From positions 1 through 49,691 of the forward strand of contig JBBSJN010000001.1 in the NCBI GenBank assembly GCA_038257235.1: a DNA stretch of 49,691 nt, written 5' to 3'. Below are positions 2,509-48,541 of this stretch, piece by piece. The first letter of the stretch is position 1. Each line of letters starts with the position of its first letter. Origin of the DNA: Chitinophagales bacterium. GTDB lineage: Bacteria > Bacteroidota > Bacteroidia > Chitinophagales > Chitinophagaceae. Under the pieces are notes generated by a model. That model was not told the origin of the DNA, did no database searches, and worked only from the letters and a program-made list of their open reading frames with translations. The translations under genes were made by a program, and so were the position numbers.

Positions 2509-2625
2509 TATTAATGAATTTTTTGTTGTGACTGCTTCCGTGTAAATAAGAGATAGAAATATAAACGTCCTTCGACTTTTACATCTCATGCCTTTCACCC
2601 GAAAGCTGAATGTTGTTTGCTTGAT

Positions 2626-2826
2626 GTGGCAGGTCTTCTGGCTTACTTCATCAGTTTTACCTTCCCATCCATTTTTTAAAAGGACAGTGGTATGAAGAAA
2701 ACTGATTTTTCCTCCCCCTGTCTGCCAACAGGCAGGCTTCTGGGGGCGGGGAGCTTACAGCTACGGGGATAGCGTCAGATTTTGACTGACTTCCCTTTTA
2801 ATTCCGGTTATTATGCCGGAAACCAA
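2626..2826 (-). ncRNA. Cobalamin riboswitch
   Basis: Minus strand: GGTT-hairpin-AAAAGGGAAGTCAGTCAAAATCTGACGCTATCCCCGTAGCTGTAAG...ACCACTG...GGGAAGG...AGCCAGAAGACCTGCC (B12 box); boundaries approximate. Confidence 0.92.
2717..2736 (+). repeat. Family A mini-palindrome (20 nt) within a host hairpin (2711-2753) inside the riboswitch
   Basis: CCTGTCTGCCAACAGGCAGG; removal leaves CCTCCCCTTCTGGGGGCGGGGAG. Confidence 0.9.
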
Positions 2827-2833
2827 ATCGCTG

Positions 2834-2841
2834 CAAATGTA
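2834..2841 (-). promoter_or_regulatory. Bacteroidota -7 promoter element for the riboswitch-btuB transcript
   Basis: TACATTTG on the minus strand (TAnnTTTG consensus) just 5' of the riboswitch. Confidence 0.7.
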
Positions 2842-3115
2842 GGGAGAGGATATATCTTTTCAGAAATAAATATTTAAATCTGAAATTTTATTCTTTGGAA
2901 TAAACTTTGCAGTATTCATACGGTCAGTCTAAAATCAGGGTTTTATACAGCAATTCTAAAATTTCCTGAATTATTTAACATAGTGGGTAATAATCAAAAT
3001 TAAATTCAGCCGTTTTTTATTTAATCCCGATAATTTATTTTTTCTCGTTTCCAATAACGGCCTGCTTTTATTGTAATAAACAGAGAATGATTCTTTTCTT
3101 TTTGAAACAAAAAAT

Positions 3116-3879: not shown

Positions 3880-5988
3880 TTATTTAGTTGTTGATTTAAT
3901 CCATTGAAAAGAAATTCCCACATAATAATTTCTTGGCGGAGCAGCATTGTAAAAGCGGTTGGCAGCGGCATTGATATCGTTACCTAAGCTATAGGTTTCA
4001 TTCAACAGGTTATCAACTCCTGCATAAAAATTAAATTTGTATTTGCGCTGCAATGTTTTTTTCCATCCTGCTCTGCAGCCGAGCAGATAATATGGTTCTG
4101 CTGATGCAGTGTTTGCATCATTCAGAAAAATTTTTGAAGCCGAGTAGTAAGTAATATTTGAATAGATACCGTTCTTTAGTTGAACATCAGCTAAGGCTGA
4201 TAATATAGTAGCCGGAACGGATGGAACCGTTTTGCCGGAAAAATCATTAATGCCTTTTATAAAACTGCCGTATCGGAAATGGTTGTAAGTATGTGCAATT
4301 GTTATAGCCAAATAATCTAACAATGAAACGGAGGAAGCCTGGTGTGTATAATGAATCTGTGATTCAATCCCTTTTTGCTTCACATCTCCCGCATTCACAA
4401 AAAAATCAGCACCTGAAAGATCCCTTCGCTGTACCAGTGCATTATTCAGTTTGAAATGGAATCCGGTTACTTCAACATCAAACCTGTGTTTCCATCTTCC
4501 TAAACTATAGTTAAGTCCAAGTTCATAATTCCAGCCATATTCGGCTTCAAGATCTGTGCTGATAACACCTGTTGATGGCAATAACTCACCAACTGTAGGT
4601 GGAGAAAAGCCTCTTGATACAGTTGCTTTCAAGGCAAAATCATTTGCAAATAATTTTTTTAATGAAATCCGTGGAGCCAATTCATTCTTATACCTGCGGG
4701 TTTGTTTTAATACCGGATATTGATTCAGTCTGCTAAAATTTACTTTTGTTTTATTCAGACTGATGCCGGTATTGATAAACCAATTTTTATTAAGACTTAT
4801 ATCTCCCTGCACAAAAAAATTATAAGTAGTATAATCAATATCATCGTTTGTTTGAAGGGTGTCAGGGTTGCCATTCTTGTTTTTTGAAACCTGTGTATTG
4901 AAATATCCTTGTTGAAATTCGCTGCCGGCTACCAATTGCAATTCATTGGCATTTTCATCTTTCTTTTTATAAGTGAAAAAAGTACGTCCGCCAAAACCGG
5001 GTTCATTCCTTCTTTCATAATTACGAATGGCCGGATTTTTTATTTGTGAAAAAGCACCGTATAAAGTCGTTGAATTTTTGAACGAATTAGTGATGTGATA
5101 AACGTTTGTAAATCCTGCTGTAATATTTTTCTGATAAATGGCTGCTTTTGCGTTTACTGCCGAAGGGAAAGCACCTGCGGCTGGCCTCGCTGCTTTTGGA
5201 TCAGCAGTAAACTCGGCCAATGTTAATGCGCCGGGAGTTTCATAAAATAAGTCGGTAAATAAAACAGCTGCTGATAGTTGCTGTTTGTCTGATAGTTTTA
5301 GTTGCGATTGCCAGGAAAAATTATCTCTCCGCATTTTAGTTTGTAGTCTATAGCCATCAGTTTCATTGTGGGCATAGGTAATCTGATTTTTATTCTCCTG
5401 CCCGACAACGTCATTCAGGCGGGCTTTTTTGCCAAATGCAACAGAAGTAAAGATGTTTTGCAGATTGTAGCTGCCTGTAACATATTCAAGACTTGCTCCG
5501 GGTTTCCAGGTATCGAAATTATTGACGAGGATTAAACCGCCGGTACCGGCTCCGTACATACTTCCTGCTGGTCCTTTAAAAATTTCGATGGAAGAAAAAT
5601 TATTCCATGCCAGTTGGTTAAAATAAGTATTGCCGCCCGGATCCGTTAATGGAATATTGTTCCAATAAACTTTTACGTTTCTTACGCCAAATGGGGAACG
5701 GAGAGAACTGCCTCTTATATTAATACGATAGCTACCGGGGCTTCTCTCTTCCATTCTTACACCGGCTATTGTATTAAATCCATTTACCAATGATGTTTTG
5801 TTATTCCGGTCACCATTATTGAATTCTATGATTTTTACCGTAGCAGTAGAATTCCTTATGCTCATGTTTTGCTCAAAAGCTTTTATAGTTACCTCGTCAA
5901 GAATTTTCGTAGAATCATTTATTGTTTCCTGGCTATAGCTTATAGAAATAATAAGAGAAAAGAAAACAAAAAGTATAATTTTTTTCAT
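3880..5988 (-). CDS. TonB-dependent receptor (YncD-like)
   Basis: LDEVTIKA TonB box; MEERSPGSYRINIRGSSLRSPFGVRNVK plug; YNAAPPRNYYVG C-terminus. Confidence 0.85.
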   Translation of the reverse strand: MKKIILFVFFSLIISISYSQETINDSTKILDEVTIKAFEQNMSIRNSTATVKIIEFNNGDRNNKTSLVNGFNTIAGVRMEERSPGSYRINIRGSSLRSPFGVRNVKVYWNNIPLTDPGGNTYFNQLAWNNFSSIEIFKGPAGSMYGAGTGGLILVNNFDTWKPGASLEYVTGSYNLQNIFTSVAFGKKARLNDVVGQENKNQITYAHNETDGYRLQTKMRRDNFSWQSQLKLSDKQQLSAAVLFTDLFYETPGALTLAEFTADPKAARPAAGAFPSAVNAKAAIYQKNITAGFTNVYHITNSFKNSTTLYGAFSQIKNPAIRNYERRNEPGFGGRTFFTYKKKDENANELQLVAGSEFQQGYFNTQVSKNKNGNPDTLQTNDDIDYTTYNFFVQGDISLNKNWFINTGISLNKTKVNFSRLNQYPVLKQTRRYKNELAPRISLKKLFANDFALKATVSRGFSPPTVGELLPSTGVISTDLEAEYGWNYELGLNYSLGRWKHRFDVEVTGFHFKLNNALVQRRDLSGADFFVNAGDVKQKGIESQIHYTHQASSVSLLDYLAITIAHTYNHFRYGSFIKGINDFSGKTVPSVPATILSALADVQLKNGIYSNITYYSASKIFLNDANTASAEPYYLLGCRAGWKKTLQRKYKFNFYAGVDNLLNETYSLGNDINAAANRFYNAAPPRNYYVGISFQWIKSTTK
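5397..5423 (-). repeat. Family B mini-palindrome (27 nt), in frame within the TonB-dependent receptor
   Basis: Minus strand CCCGCCTGAATGACGTTGTCGGGCAGG, 19/27 identical to the 35740-35766 copy. Confidence 0.75.
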
Positions 5989-35739: not shown

Positions 35740-35766
35740 CCCGCCCGGCCAAGCCGTTCGGACGGG
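35740..35766 (-). repeat. Family B mini-palindrome (27 nt) in host CCTCCGAAG|GAGGGACTT (35731-35775)
   Basis: Minus strand CCCGTCCGAACGGCTTGGCCGGGCGGG; removal restores the hairpin CCTCC-GAA-GGAGG. Confidence 0.85.
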
Positions 35767-36155: not shown

Positions 36156-36353
36156 ATGTTTGTTTTTTATTTCATATTCTTTATTCCGGCCACGATACTT
36201 TTTCTGAGCATAGTTGTATTAGGGTTAGTTTATTTTTATATTGGGCTTTTACAGTTGATAAATTCTTGGAAAGTTTCTCCTTCTTTTGCTTTAAAACAAG
36301 TTAGATTAAATAAAGACATTTTGAAAATGCTCAGTAGATTACAGAACGATTAA
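36156..36353 (+). CDS. Candidate 65-aa small membrane protein
   Basis: MFVFYFIFFIPATILFLSIVVLGLVYFYIGLLQLINSWK..., ATG 10 nt after the SUI1 stop. Confidence 0.4.
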   Translation: MFVFYFIFFIPATILFLSIVVLGLVYFYIGLLQLINSWKVSPSFALKQVRLNKDILKMLSRLQND

Positions 36354-36386
36354 GTGAGTGACACAACGGAAGATGCTAATAGCACT

Positions 36387-36422
36387 AAAGCCTAGAACAA
36401 TATAAAAGCCTAGAACAATATA
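36387..36422. repeat. Perfect 18-bp tandem duplication
   Basis: AAAGCCTAGAACAATATA x2. Confidence 0.9.
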
Positions 36423-36470: not shown

Positions 36471-36516
36471 CTAAGTTCCCCCTGTCTGCCGACAGCCAGG
36501 CTTTAGGGGACTGGGG
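36471..36516 (+). repeat. Host REP-like element filled with a family A copy (36481-36500)
   Basis: CTAAGTTCCC[CCTGTCTGCCGACAGCCAGG]CTTTAGGGGACTGGGG. Confidence 0.9.
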
Positions 36517-38122: not shown

Positions 38123-38509
38123 ATGACCAGCATGATATCCGAAGGAGTGAAAGTAAGCGTAGAAACTTTCTACCAGGCCGATTACAGCAACCCGCTGCAG
38201 TCGGAATTCATGTTTGCATACCGCATTTCTTTAGAAAATCACAACGCATTTCCTGTAAAACTGCACCGCCGCCATTGGTATATTTTTGACAGTAATGGCA
38301 GCCACCGCGAAGTGGAAGGAGAAGGTGTGGTGGGCATTCAACCTACCTTACAACCCGGCGAAAATTATCAATACGTAAGCGGTTGCAACCTCCGCACCGA
38401 AATGGGAAAAATGCATGGCACTTACCAGATGGAAAATCTGCACAGCAAACAAATGTTTGACGTAAGTATTCCTTCCTTTGAGATGATTGTGCCGATGAAG
38501 AATAATTAA
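38123..38509 (+). CDS. apaG: ApaG protein
   Basis: FAYRI...N, RHWYI.D, VEGEGVVG.QP.L.PG..YQY.SGC.L....G.M.G.Y. Confidence 0.95.
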   Translation: MTSMISEGVKVSVETFYQADYSNPLQSEFMFAYRISLENHNAFPVKLHRRHWYIFDSNGSHREVEGEGVVGIQPTLQPGENYQYVSGCNLRTEMGKMHGTYQMENLHSKQMFDVSIPSFEMIVPMKNN

Positions 38510-38516
38510 GGCCCGT

Positions 38517-38566
38517 CTAGCCCCTGTCCCCTAAAGCCTGCCTGTCGGCAGACAGGGGGAACTTAG
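38517..38566 (-). repeat. Host REP-like element filled with a family A copy (38537-38556)
   Basis: Minus strand CTAAGTTCCC[CCTGTCTGCCGACAGGCAGG]CTTTAGGGGACAGGGGCTAG. Confidence 0.92.
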
Positions 38567-38653
38567 GTTTGGTCAACTCTCCAATTTTTATATTCGCTTA
38601 AAGATTTTTTTTATTTGGTTCCCAACACCTGTTTTACATAGGATCGTCTCTTG

Positions 38654-38679
38654 CCCGTCCGAACGGTTGGCCGGGCGGA
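38654..38679 (+). repeat. Family B mini-palindrome (26 nt)
   Basis: CCCGTCCGAACGGTTGGCCGGGCGGA, one deletion and one substitution relative to the 35740-35766 copy. Confidence 0.85.
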
Positions 38680-38843
38680 CGTCGCACATTTCAGGGTTCT
38701 GTTCGTTGCTCAGCTTTTATTTTCACATTGGTAATTTCCCAATGGAATCTAAGCCTTATCAAAGTAGATTAGACTTTTGAAATCCGAGCATCTCAATTCC
38801 TTTTCTTTATAACAAAACTCCAAGAGATGAATGAATCATCGAT

Positions 38844-38873
38844 CTAAGTTCCCCTTTAGGGGACAGGGGCTAG
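38844..38873 (+). repeat. Empty host REP-like element
   Basis: CTAAGTTCCCCTTTAGGGGACAGGGGCTAG, identical to 38517-38566 minus the 20-nt insert. Confidence 0.92.
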
Positions 38874-39923
38874 GTTGGGGTTAATCTTCCTCGTCCTTTC
38901 CTTCATCAATGCAATAGCTTCTTCCTTTGAATTAAAGATTGCTCCATTGATGTTGACTAAGTTTTCTGCCAGTTTATCGTAGCGTTTTGTCAACAGCCAT
39001 GTAAATATGTGTAGATAGTGTATGCCATCGAAAACGATTGCTTTATTAGCTGCAAATTCATCTTTTCGTTTTAAGAATTCACCGGGCATTTCGGTGTAGT
39101 GCATTCCCGGGCGAAGATGATGGATGATATGATAACCATCATTCCAGCATTTTTTATTGTAAACGGTGTTGATGCAATTGATGGAACTTGTATATAAGTT
39201 TTCCGGATCTTTTGCATCAATAAAAGAATGTTGTGTCCAGTTGCCTAGCATCATCACCAGCCTTGCAAATACCAAGGGAATAATAAATATGACTAGTGTT
39301 GCTTTTAGATTTACAAAACACATTGCAATGCAAAATGCCAGATAGACATATTCGCCGGCAGTAAGCCGCTGTCCTAATTTTTTTCTTTTTTTACTAAATA
39401 GATACCTGATTGTATTAATTACGCCAACAAAAATGAATTTGAAAAAATAGGTAAGAAATCCTCTCAAACTATCCCGCTGATAAGGCATAGTGCTGCTGGT
39501 ATCGTCAAGCATATTATTTTCAATATGGTGCATACCCATGTGATGGCTGAAATAACCTTCCGGTGCATGACCAAATAATGGACAGATAATCCAGGAAGTG
39601 TATGTAAAGAAAGGTTTTTGCCAAGGTGCTTTCAATGTTTTACGATGGCAAAAACAATGAAACATTAATCCGAAACTTCCTTTAAAGTAAAGTTGTGATA
39701 AATAAAAGTATGGAACAGCCAATGCCCACCACCACCAACCGGTAAGCAGCGGAGTGTACAACAAAATAGCAACTGGTAAAATAATCAGATGAATAGTGGT
39801 TAATAAATAAATAAAAGGAAGATCCCTTTTATCAGTCATAATGCGTAACCATAATTTATCGTAAAATGAAAATTTTTCCTTTGGAGTGTAAACAGGATCA
39901 GTAAGGGTGTGTAAAGACTTCAT
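38856..39923 (-). CDS. Membrane fatty acid desaturase family protein
   Basis: His boxes HCFCH, HHMGMHH, HIIHH with TM segments. Confidence 0.85.
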   Translation of the reverse strand: MKSLHTLTDPVYTPKEKFSFYDKLWLRIMTDKRDLPFIYLLTTIHLIILPVAILLYTPLLTGWWWWALAVPYFYLSQLYFKGSFGLMFHCFCHRKTLKAPWQKPFFTYTSWIICPLFGHAPEGYFSHHMGMHHIENNMLDDTSSTMPYQRDSLRGFLTYFFKFIFVGVINTIRYLFSKKRKKLGQRLTAGEYVYLAFCIAMCFVNLKATLVIFIIPLVFARLVMMLGNWTQHSFIDAKDPENLYTSSINCINTVYNKKCWNDGYHIIHHLRPGMHYTEMPGEFLKRKDEFAANKAIVFDGIHYLHIFTWLLTKRYDKLAENLVNINGAIFNSKEEAIALMKERTRKINPNLAPVP

Positions 39924-46371: not shown

Positions 46372-46418
46372 GCCCCTCCTGTCTGCCGACAGGCAGGCCT
46401 CGGAGGTGTTGGGGAGGC
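46372..46418 (+). repeat. Host REP-like element filled with a family A copy (46378-46397)
   Basis: GCCCCT[CCTGTCTGCCGACAGGCAGG]CCTCGGAGGTGTTGGGGAGG. Confidence 0.9.
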
Positions 46419-47593: not shown

Positions 47594-48541
47594 ATGAAAG
47601 CAACAGTTTATAAATCCACCGGAAGCTGGTATATTATTAAAGATGAGAACGACAAATTCTGGAATGCCCGGATGAAAGGGGTGATGAAGATTGATGATAT
47701 TACTTCTACCAATCCTGTGGCAGTCGGTGATGATGTGGAATTTGAAATAGAGAATGAACTGGATGGTACTGCCATGATTGATGAGATTCATCGACGTAAC
47801 AATTATATTAACCGGCAATCGCCACGCAATAAATACCAGCATCATATTGTAGCTGCCAATCTTGACCAGTCAATGCTGGTGGCAACGCTGAAAGAACCTA
47901 AAACTTCACAAGGGTTTATTGACCGTTTTCTGGTTGCTTCCGAAATGTATCATGTGAAACCATTTATTGTTTTAAATAAATCTGATTTATACAAAGCAAA
48001 AGAAATGCAAAAATATCAGGACTGGAAAGCAATGTATGAAGCAGTTGGTTACAAAGTATTTTTAGTAAGTGCTGAAAAAAAGGAGGGTGTTGAAGGGGTT
48101 TTGGAAATGCTGAAAAATAAAACAACACTCATCAGCGGACATAGTGGTGTAGGCAAATCATCTTTTTTGAATGTCATATTTCCTGATAAAATTTTAAAGA
48201 CCCAGGAAGTAAGTGGCTGGAGTGGCAAAGGGCAGCATACAACTACGTTTGCTGAAATGTATGATCTTCCCCTGCCTGCCGGACAGGCAGGTTTTGGAGG
48301 ACGCATTATTGATACACCTGGAATGAGGGAATTTGGCTTGGTGGATATTGACAAACAGGAAGTATCTCATTATTTTCCTGAAATGAGAGATAGATTAAAT
48401 AATTGCCAGTTCAATAATTGCCTCCATTTTAGTGAACCTGGCTGTGCTATTAAAGAAGCAACTGTTAATGGTGAAATACATGAAAACCGATATGTGAGTT
48501 ATGTGAATATTATGGAAAGTATTGAGCAAAGAAGTTATTAA
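47594..48541 (+). CDS. rsgA: Small ribosomal subunit-dependent GTPase RsgA (start revised to MKATVYKSTGSWY)
   Basis: VAVGD.V, AANLD, NKSD (G4), GHSGVGKSS (G1), G.HTTT, DTPG, CQFNNCLH..EPGC zinc finger. Confidence 0.96.
   Translation: MKATVYKSTGSWYIIKDENDKFWNARMKGVMKIDDITSTNPVAVGDDVEFEIENELDGTAMIDEIHRRNNYINRQSPRNKYQHHIVAANLDQSMLVATLKEPKTSQGFIDRFLVASEMYHVKPFIVLNKSDLYKAKEMQKYQDWKAMYEAVGYKVFLVSAEKKEGVEGVLEMLKNKTTLISGHSGVGKSSFLNVIFPDKILKTQEVSGWSGKGQHTTTFAEMYDLPLPAGQAGFGGRIIDTPGMREFGLVDIDKQEVSHYFPEMRDRLNNCQFNNCLHFSEPGCAIKEATVNGEIHENRYVSYVNIMESIEQRSY
48271..48291 (+). repeat. Family A mini-palindrome (21 nt), in frame in rsgA
   Basis: CCTGCCTGCCGGACAGGCAGG; removal gives MYDLPFGGRIIDTPG. Confidence 0.9.

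What the first reader, a model, noticed from the sequence alone, without database searches (positions are those of the whole stretch)
38517..38873. Filled and empty alleles of the same 30-bp host face each other about 280 bp apart
38844-38873 is base-for-base the reverse complement of 38517-38566 once the 20-nt family A unit is removed, and 36471-36516 is a second filled copy at the same junction. This defines the element ends and shows there is no target duplication. The inverted pair brackets a segment carrying a family B copy, resembling a REPIN/MITE-like unit between convergent apaG and desaturase.
Basis: seen in the sequence. Interest (0 to 1): 0.75.

Follow-up and report, generated by a model that had tools for sequence, protein, structure and literature searches.

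The report
Tiny hairpin pasted into facing repeats
A 20-base DNA hairpin sits in one of two facing copies of a short repeat with no duplicated bases; the same hairpin is present or absent at matching sites in close relatives and occurs letter for letter in many bacterial phyla, and it is likely spread by a miniature nuclease whose gene it almost always accompanies.

Summary
Observation confirmed: 38844-38873 is the exact reverse complement of 38517-38566 minus 20 nt. The locus has three layers. (1) Hairpin A (20 nt) is a mobile micro-element: about 80 copies here in many hosts; 20 of 22 alignable sites are empty in the closest relative, which has its own private copies; 43 of 43 mapped insertions in tRNA copies gain or lose no flanking base. 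The exact sequence occurs in 58 of 301 genomes of the phylum and under about 11 phylum labels. Family B is a longer-loop sister; 21- and 27-nt forms dominate in ORFs. (2) Host H is a REP/triplex-like repeat (143 copies, mostly facing doublets, some around DUF559 genes). (3) The 357-bp unit is not a repeated MITE: the inner segment is unique and differs among relatives. A lies beside 75 of 82 close relatives of a 78-aa tRNA-linked GIY-YIG nuclease, against 3 of 30 DUF559 and 0 of 12 Y1 loci: the likely mover, untested. Not found in print in my searches; this scan noted the hairpin, the tRNA-GIY-YIG cassette and the DUF559 repeats before on other DNA.

The parts
38123..38509 (+). apaG gene
   Evidence: ORF; PF04379 E 6.8e-34
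38517..38566 (+). left host repeat H, filled with hairpin A
   Evidence: orthologous copy empty in G031, G032, G033, G002, G013, G016
38537..38556 (+). family A, 20-nt hairpin micro-element
   Evidence: ends fixed
38567..38843 (.). inner segment, unique in this genome and different in relatives
38605..38718 (-). copy of a third dispersed repeat (K), limits approximate; in G031 and G032 two inverted K copies lie inside the H pair
38654..38679 (+). family B hairpin (26 nt), inserted in K without duplication
   Evidence: absent at the G031 ortholog, 26-nt gap
38844..38873 (-). right host repeat H, empty; supplies the TAA stop (38856-38858) of the desaturase ORF
   Evidence: shared with G031
38856..39923 (-). 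fatty acid desaturase gene
   Evidence: PF00487 E 8e-23
36471..36516 (-). second filled H copy (A at 36481-36500), 14 nt after the isocitrate dehydrogenase stop
   Evidence: H absent at the G031 site
2717..2736 (-). family A copy in an H-like hairpin inside the cobalamin riboswitch (2611-2842)
46378..46397 (-). family A copy in a different palindromic host
48271..48291 (+). 21-nt variant of A, in frame inside rsgA
35740..35766 (+). family B copy (27 nt) in another palindromic host
   Evidence: clean 27-nt gap in G031
5397..5423 (+). 27-nt member of the same stem family inside a long ORF

Best explanation
The filled copy carries a 20-base hairpin that was added to an existing repeat without duplicating or deleting target bases, and this hairpin is likely a non-autonomous micro-element moved in trans by a 78-residue GIY-YIG nuclease that is predicted to recognise it as single-stranded or cruciform DNA. 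Shown: precise presence/absence at orthologous sites, many unrelated hosts, a recurrent junction (AAAG^GG) in H, in-frame length forms in genes, and tight linkage of the hairpin to one GIY-YIG clade beside tRNA genes. Inferred: the enzyme binds the hairpin and nicks near it; the released or copied hairpin is joined into another nick or single-stranded loop, probably with host ligase or repair help; targets are mostly 3' of a purine and often in or next to stem-loops; selection keeps 21- and 27-nt forms in genes. The facing H pair is a separate, older layer: H doublets are likely the non-autonomous form of an H-DUF559-H cassette, and here the doublet has become a slot in which other repeats and cargo turn over.
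For: Orthologs in 2.36 Mb held of the ~4.0-Mb genome G031: of 80 A sites 20 empty, 2 filled (one real, one a chance coding match), 28 not alignable, 30 without ortholog; of 75 B sites 14 empty, 0 filled; reciprocally 7 of G031's 21 A sites are empty here. Left H at apaG is empty in six relatives, so filled is derived. H+A junction in 24 of 147 genus genomes; 29 sites examined fall in 27 locus groups with different host tails and A variants. 43 of 43 mapped insertions in tRNA copies need no flank shift, at 23 position/isoacceptor/side classes in 9 isoacceptors (55 further A matches were not mapped). ORF test: 21+27 nt 40 in/31 out, 20+26+28 nt 9 in/81 out, Fisher p 1.6e-10. A near the gene in 47 of 51 relatives at >=60% identity, 28 of 31 at 50-59%, 1 of 15 below 50%; a branch with SH-aLRT 95 holds 71 A loci of 77 rows (quick tree). 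Controls: 3 of 30 DUF559 loci, 0 of 12 Y1 loci. In genomes with few copies the copy is often the one beside the gene (G098, G114, G232, G270). tRNA homology runs on a median 12 nt (n=18) or 10 nt (n=20) past the hairpin whether it sits at tRNA position 13-16 or >=19. Y5, Y16, G18, R26, H30, E62 are conserved in >=99% of A-linked proteins. Precedent for a single-domain GIY-YIG binding a hairpin repeat and cutting beside it: Ssn (PMC11893778).
Against: No biochemistry. GIY-YIG nucleases are known to hydrolyse, not to join strands (own knowledge), so the pasting step has no precedent. Genome co-occurrence is loose: a clade-level hit (E<=1e-20) in 12 of 30 A-positive against 3 of 30 A-negative genomes (p 0.015, kin not independent), and 4 of 30 positives have no hit at 1e-8. 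Only about 4 of 194 loci fetched by the A sequence show the gene nearby. tRNA-GIY-YIG loci collect several other hairpins too, so they may be hot spots, not sources. The metagenome loci were picked by likeness to one query and are related. No partner for B was established (4 loci, scattered). Several coding sites show 21-nt net gaps around a 20-nt copy (by eye), so insertion is not always exact. All four H+A copies here share one loop variant, which fits conversion or a single burst. No clear replication-strand bias (13 against 8, 10 flat).
Confidence: 0.5

Rival explanations
1. A is mobile but moved by another, unlinked enzyme (an HUH/Y1 transposase such as RAYT, or a reverse transcriptase); the tRNA-GIY-YIG loci only attract it because they are nicked often and tolerate insertions.
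For: No target duplication fits IS200/IS605-type chemistry (PMC3116915 passages). G000 has 7 Y1 matches. A is found in the repeats of several systems, including Ssn-type repeats and itself.
Against: 0 of 12 Y1 loci carry A; two G000 Y1 loci have one nearby, one inside the gene. A pairs with one GIY-YIG clade while more distant tRNA-linked GIY-YIGs in the same kind of site carry other hairpins (1 of 15), which a generic hot spot would not give. No fixed target tetranucleotide.
Confidence: 0.2
2. A is the nuclease's recognition hairpin, used to move or amplify the tRNA-GIY-YIG cassette by nick-stimulated recombination; scattered copies are by-products captured by host break repair, not products of a dedicated pasting reaction.
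For: Near-constant 10-12 nt distance to the cassette junction; tandem cassette arrays in several genomes; needs no new chemistry.
Against: Repair capture would be expected to leave ragged ends and flanking tRNA sequence; dispersed copies are flush 20-mers.
Confidence: 0.17
3. Filled H copies are one composite lineage that spread by copying or gene conversion between H copies.
For: The four G000 copies share one A variant. Composite spread is real elsewhere: in G066 many A copies sit at one junction of an Ssn-type repeat.
Against: Three of three testable H+A sites have an empty H at the G031 ortholog; host tails and A variants vary over 27 locus groups; only 4 of about 80 A copies are in H. Short-patch conversion among the G000 copies is not excluded.
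Confidence: 0.08
4. The 357-bp H-inner-H stretch is itself a MITE/REPIN that inserted as one unit.
For: 28 of 40 close H pairs face each other; 16 of 19 anchored doublets are absent in G031, several leaving 13-33-nt intergenic gaps; apaG and the desaturase overlap by 4 nt with no H in G003 and G007.
Against: Inner segment is unique; G031 keeps both H copies with a different inside; G015 and G027 have only the right copy, G033 and G002 only the left. An ancestral doublet may have arrived as a unit, but not this sequence.
Confidence: 0.05

Closest known systems
Small dispersed repeats (SDR, e.g. SDR5) of Nostocaceae, Elhai et al. 2008 Genome Res 18:1484 (paper not held; seen only through a citing passage in PMC4390886; sizes recalled)
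   Same: Very small structured repeats that insert precisely, also into genes (21-27 nt as recalled).
   Different: SDR5 inserts at a fixed position of HIP1; A has no fixed target, is 20 nt, spans many phyla and has a candidate enzyme. Sequence kinship not tested.
Ssn nucleases with NTS/SRM repeats (PMC11893778; abstract, passages and section 10 read)
   Same: Single-domain GIY-YIG gene physically linked to a cognate hairpin that is dispersed in the genome.
   Different: SRMs flank ssn directly and have an oriented CGTC-type head; A has no head or tail, sits in a broken tRNA copy beside the gene, and inserts into other repeats including SRM-like ones. The paper shows cutting, not mobility. G000's SRM-flanked GIY-YIGs score 53 and 43 bits on the A-clade profile against 136.
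REP/REPIN with RAYT (PMC3116915, PMC3733652; passages read)
   Same: H forms facing doublets that are present or absent as units and flank a nuclease-like gene.
   Different: H has no GTAG/CGTC tag, its spacers are unrelated AT-rich sequences, and the flanked gene is DUF559, not a Y1 transposase. A moves as a singlet, whereas REP singlet excision was not seen in that study.
BoxC/PIT intrastrand triplex motif (PMC4666352; passages read)
   Same: H reads C-tract, G-tract, 3-nt loop, G-tract on one strand (class II layout); intergenic; variable loci. Two A hosts in relatives (L512, L516) resemble the long motif.
   Different: H tracts are 4-5 nt, not 9; the TMECO consensus is not met; triplex formation untested.

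Membership tests
REPIN (for the H doublet) | Inverted doublets over-represented | tested here: met
   28 of 40 close pairs face each other, binomial p 2.8e-9 against 1/4; convergent gene ends could inflate this
REPIN (for the H doublet) | Doublet present or absent as a unit | tested here: met
   16 none, 2 both, 1 scored one of 19 anchored; 7 more had no anchor
REPIN (for the H doublet) | Cognate RAYT flanked by the repeat | tested here: not met
   None of 7 Y1 loci is flanked by the TAAAG-loop H pattern; facing H copies flank DUF559 genes at C149 and C176, a close variant at C130
REP (GTAG/CGTC) | Terminal GTAG or CGTC tag | tested here: not met
   Neither A, B nor H carries the tag
MITE (for the 357-bp unit) | Multiple copies of the whole unit with shared interior | tested here: not met
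   Inner segment single-copy apart from K/B pieces
MITE (for the 357-bp unit) | Target-site duplication | tested here: inconclusive
   No clean pre-insertion allele close enough at this locus
SDR-like very small mobile repeat (for A/B) | Under 30 nt, precise insertion shown by empty alleles | tested here: met
SDR-like very small mobile repeat (for A/B) | Sequence or structure kinship with SDR1-8 | not testable with these tools
   Paper not held
IS200/IS605-type element (for A) | No target duplication | tested here: met
   43 of 43 mapped
IS200/IS605-type element (for A) | Fixed 4-5-nt target and linked TnpA(Y1) | tested here: not met
   12 different junction tetramers; 0 of 12 Y1 loci
Ssn (cd10448) for the C293 protein | Single-domain GIY-YIG with conserved catalytic-type residues | tested here: met
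   PF01541 E 1.1e-18; UPF0213 structures 1ywl and 1zg2; conservation
Ssn (cd10448) for the C293 protein | cd10448 assignment and flanking SRMs | tested here: inconclusive
   CDD not available; gene is flanked by tRNA copies, not SRMs, and is distant from the SRM-flanked GIY-YIGs of G000
Ssn (cd10448) for the C293 protein | Site-specific ssDNA cleavage | not testable with these tools
   needs an assay
BoxC/TMECO triplex motif (for H) | Consensus with 9-nt tracts | tested here: not met
   H sequences against the consensus quoted

The most novel reading that the evidence does not exclude
A is the smallest transposable unit known, a 20-base hairpin, and a 78-residue tRNA-lodged GIY-YIG protein is its transposase: a new class of mobile DNA in which each GIY-YIG subclade pastes its own hairpin into nicked stem-loops across many phyla, hyperparasitising REP-like repeats, tRNA copies, riboswitches and genes.
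Probability: 0.3. Interest if true: 0.9.

Novelty: new variant of a known kind. Interest (0 to 1): 0.7.

Why it matters
How repeats of 20-40 bases spread in bacterial genomes is still open. This case gives exact before/after alleles, a phylum-crossing element of only 20 bases, and one small named candidate enzyme, so the question becomes a simple assay with an oligonucleotide and a 9-kDa protein. The element also adds 7- or 9-residue inserts to many proteins and can confuse annotation. If the enzyme joins as well as cuts, it would be new chemistry for the GIY-YIG fold and a scar-free insertion tool.

Tried and rejected
Within-genome junction test with exact 9+9 flanks was weak (5 of 82 sites at the exact ends); orthologs replaced it. 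The automatic test did not score the apaG site itself (a nearby 9-nt gap); it was aligned directly, where homopolymer differences make the net gap 21 nt, so that site alone cannot fix the ends. Clustering ORFs around 194 A loci gave no obligatory neighbour. Y1/RAYT and DUF559 were tested as partners of A and dropped. Replication-strand bias from contig GC skew was inconclusive. Folding scores of these short strands are weak or not above shuffles (z -0.55 to -2.39). The single-sequence structure model (pLDDT 67, pTM 0.27, all helix) was unusable and not searched. The careful tree did not finish; only the quick tree is cited. The K census regex was noisy (44 matches, many spurious), so no K count is claimed. 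Read laying gave contigs only; one contig of run X2 has 28 gap letters across the left H, compatible with an empty allele in a relative, but single and low-depth. The first mapping of junction distance was biased to >=8 nt and was redone (40 of 48 mapped). Elhai 2008 could not be read. Paper searches without a description of A, of the tRNA-GIY-YIG-hairpin unit or of H-DUF559: (listings only, open-access library only; supplements not searched, and those of PMC11893778 or PMC3733652 could list such repeats). Assembly artefact rejected: decayed copies, one shared ortholog, isolate genomes, contigs.

Full report
Observation. The reverse complement of 38844-38873 equals 38517-38566 once 20 nt are removed; two removals one base apart work, so this site alone leaves a 1-nt slide. 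36471-36516 is a second filled copy at the same junction. The flanking genes are apaG and a fatty acid desaturase; the right copy supplies the desaturase stop codon. The genome (G000, 3.2 Mb, 382 contigs, 37.6% GC) encodes GldB next door, from which I infer a Bacteroidota member.

Layer 1: hairpin A. A degenerate pattern finds 82 copies against 5 in a shuffled genome (80 after merging overlaps), in many unrelated contexts. The base before it is A or G in 57 of 71 oriented copies, with no fixed target. I fetched 2.36 Mb of the closest relative G031 (about 4.0 Mb; about 85% identical over the window). Of 80 A sites 20 are empty there, 2 filled (one real, one a chance coding match), 28 not alignable and 30 without a held ortholog; of 75 B sites 14 are empty and none filled; of G031's 21 A sites 7 are empty in G000. 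One of these is in the window: G031 has a flush 20-nt copy at about 2612, the end of the cobalamin riboswitch. The left H at apaG is empty in G031, G032, G033, G002, G013 and G016, and G004 has a different hairpin there, so the filled state is derived. A and B share an 8-bp stem pattern and differ in loop length; 156 such hairpins occur against 0 in two shuffles. Length tracks coding status: 20 nt 9 in ORFs/63 out, 21 nt 26/10, 27 nt 14/21, 26 and 28 nt 0/18 (p 1.6e-10). Against a strict rule: several coding sites show a 21-nt net gap around a 20-nt copy (by eye).

Independent insertion or composite spread. Of 143 H copies 4 carry A and 21 carry B, at a different junction on the other strand. 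The three testable H+A sites are empty in G031. The same junction is filled in 24 of 147 genus genomes; the 29 sites examined form 27 locus groups with different host tails and A variants. The junction is therefore a recurrent target. Conversion among the four G000 copies, which share one variant, is not excluded, and composite spread does occur elsewhere (G066).

Breadth. The exact pattern is in 58 of 301 genomes of the phylum, with one hit of the reversed control. It is also in 73 viral-contig stretches. Hosts include tRNA copies, Ssn-type repeats and A itself (output partly cut).

Candidate enzyme. G000 C293 has A inside a truncated tRNA-Leu copy 18 nt before a 78-aa GIY-YIG gene that is followed by the intact tRNA. 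The protein matches PF01541 and two UPF0213 structures. Among 97 distinct relatives from 30 genome and 80 metagenome loci, A lies within 300 nt upstream or 450 nt downstream in 47 of 51 at >=60% identity, 28 of 31 at 50-59% and 1 of 15 below 50%, where other hairpins appear. Controls: 3 of 30 DUF559 loci from mostly A-positive genomes and 0 of 12 Y1 loci. All 43 mapped copies fit the neighbouring intact tRNA with no base gained or lost, at 23 classes of position in 9 isoacceptors; 55 matches were not mapped by that strict test. In 40 of 48 upstream-type loci mapped without that bias, tRNA homology continues a median 12 nt (positions 13-16) or 10 nt (positions >=19) past the hairpin and this run does not depend on position (rho -0.23, p 0.16), as if the junction were set relative to the hairpin. 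Genome co-occurrence is weaker: 12 of 30 against 3 of 30 at E<=1e-20, and 4 of 30 A-positive genomes have no hit at 1e-8; some 'negative' genomes have A variants beside their gene. Ssn proteins show that a lone GIY-YIG domain can bind a hairpin repeat and cut beside it (PMC11893778; abstract, passages, section 10). Strand joining by GIY-YIG is unknown to me, so the pasting step is inference.

Layer 2: host H and the facing pair. H copies sit at gene ends; 28 of 40 close pairs face each other, mostly 60-125 nt apart with unrelated AT-rich spacers. H is itself mobile: absent at 67 of 92 anchored G031 sites, and 16 of 19 anchored doublets are wholly absent. Facing copies bracket DUF559 genes at C149 and C176, with a variant at C130; 19 of 30 DUF559 loci elsewhere have an H-like repeat on at least one side and 6 a facing pair (loose pattern, no shuffle control). 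So H doublets work like REPINs with DUF559 likely in the place of RAYT, but fail the RAYT and tag tests. H has the layout of a class II triplex motif without meeting the BoxC consensus (PMC4666352 passages).

Layer 3: this locus. The inner 277 nt is single-copy apart from a K repeat and its B insert. G031 keeps both H copies around two inverted K copies and about 0.5 kb of other, ORF-like sequence; G032 has both H and both K copies but no desaturase next door; G015 and G027 have only the right H, G033 and G002 only the left; G003 and G007 have overlapping genes and no H. The pair is thus an old H doublet used as a slot, not a MITE in its present form.

Known kinds and novelty. Closest are the cyanobacterial SDRs (paper not held; one citing passage read), Ssn/SRM and REPIN/RAYT (PMC3116915 and PMC3733652, passages). 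I found no description of A or of its pairing with this clade in searches of the open library. Earlier notes of this scan report the same hairpins, the tRNA-GIY-YIG cassette and DUF559 repeats on other DNA; they are leads, not support. Verdict: a real nested insertion; a new variant of very small mobile repeat with a specific, untested candidate enzyme. Interest 0.7.

Noticed in passing
window 2611-2842 (-): Cobalamin riboswitch before a TonB-dependent receptor; it holds an H-like hairpin filled with A here, and G031 has a different A insertion at its 3' end.
   Followed up: partly
window 48271-48291, 5397-5423: In-frame 21-nt and 27-nt hairpin inserts in rsgA and in a long ORF at 3880-5988.
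   Followed up: partly
window about 36340-36400: A K-type repeat followed by an 18-nt tandem duplication that one contig of run X2 lacks.
   Followed up: no
G000 C20:10742, C87:3422, C244:1: DUF559 domains inside long open frames (1067, 498 and 287 aa), bounded by H-like palindromes; the host genes look like housekeeping enzymes but were not identified by a call.
   Followed up: no
L347, L348 (G000 C30, C91): Two more tRNA-linked GIY-YIG genes whose broken tRNA-Ser and tRNA-Ala copies carry other hairpins, suggesting further nuclease-hairpin pairs.
   Followed up: partly
G000 C131:223 and C21:24883: B variant in tRNA-Arg copies at contig ends, with a GIY-YIG fragment at C131:2-109; a possible partner for B.
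   Followed up: partly
G130:C2:365048-369130: At least 14 tandem copies of a roughly 300-bp unit with a GIY-YIG gene.
   Followed up: no
L360-L361 (G066 C2): About 15 A copies, most at one junction of an Ssn-type repeat across a polysaccharide gene region: composite spread.
   Followed up: partly
G000 C14:24316, C30:2085, C119:5102, C143:6165 and others: A third 27-nt family member nested inside B, itself often inside H: three-level nesting.
   Followed up: no
L002, L005, L009, L011, L019: The apaG 3' region holds different variable DNA, ORF-like in several, in different relatives: a turnover hot spot.
   Followed up: no
L349, L350, L354-L356: G000 also has GIY-YIG genes flanked by SRM-like repeats and Y1 genes flanked by their own palindromes.
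   Followed up: no
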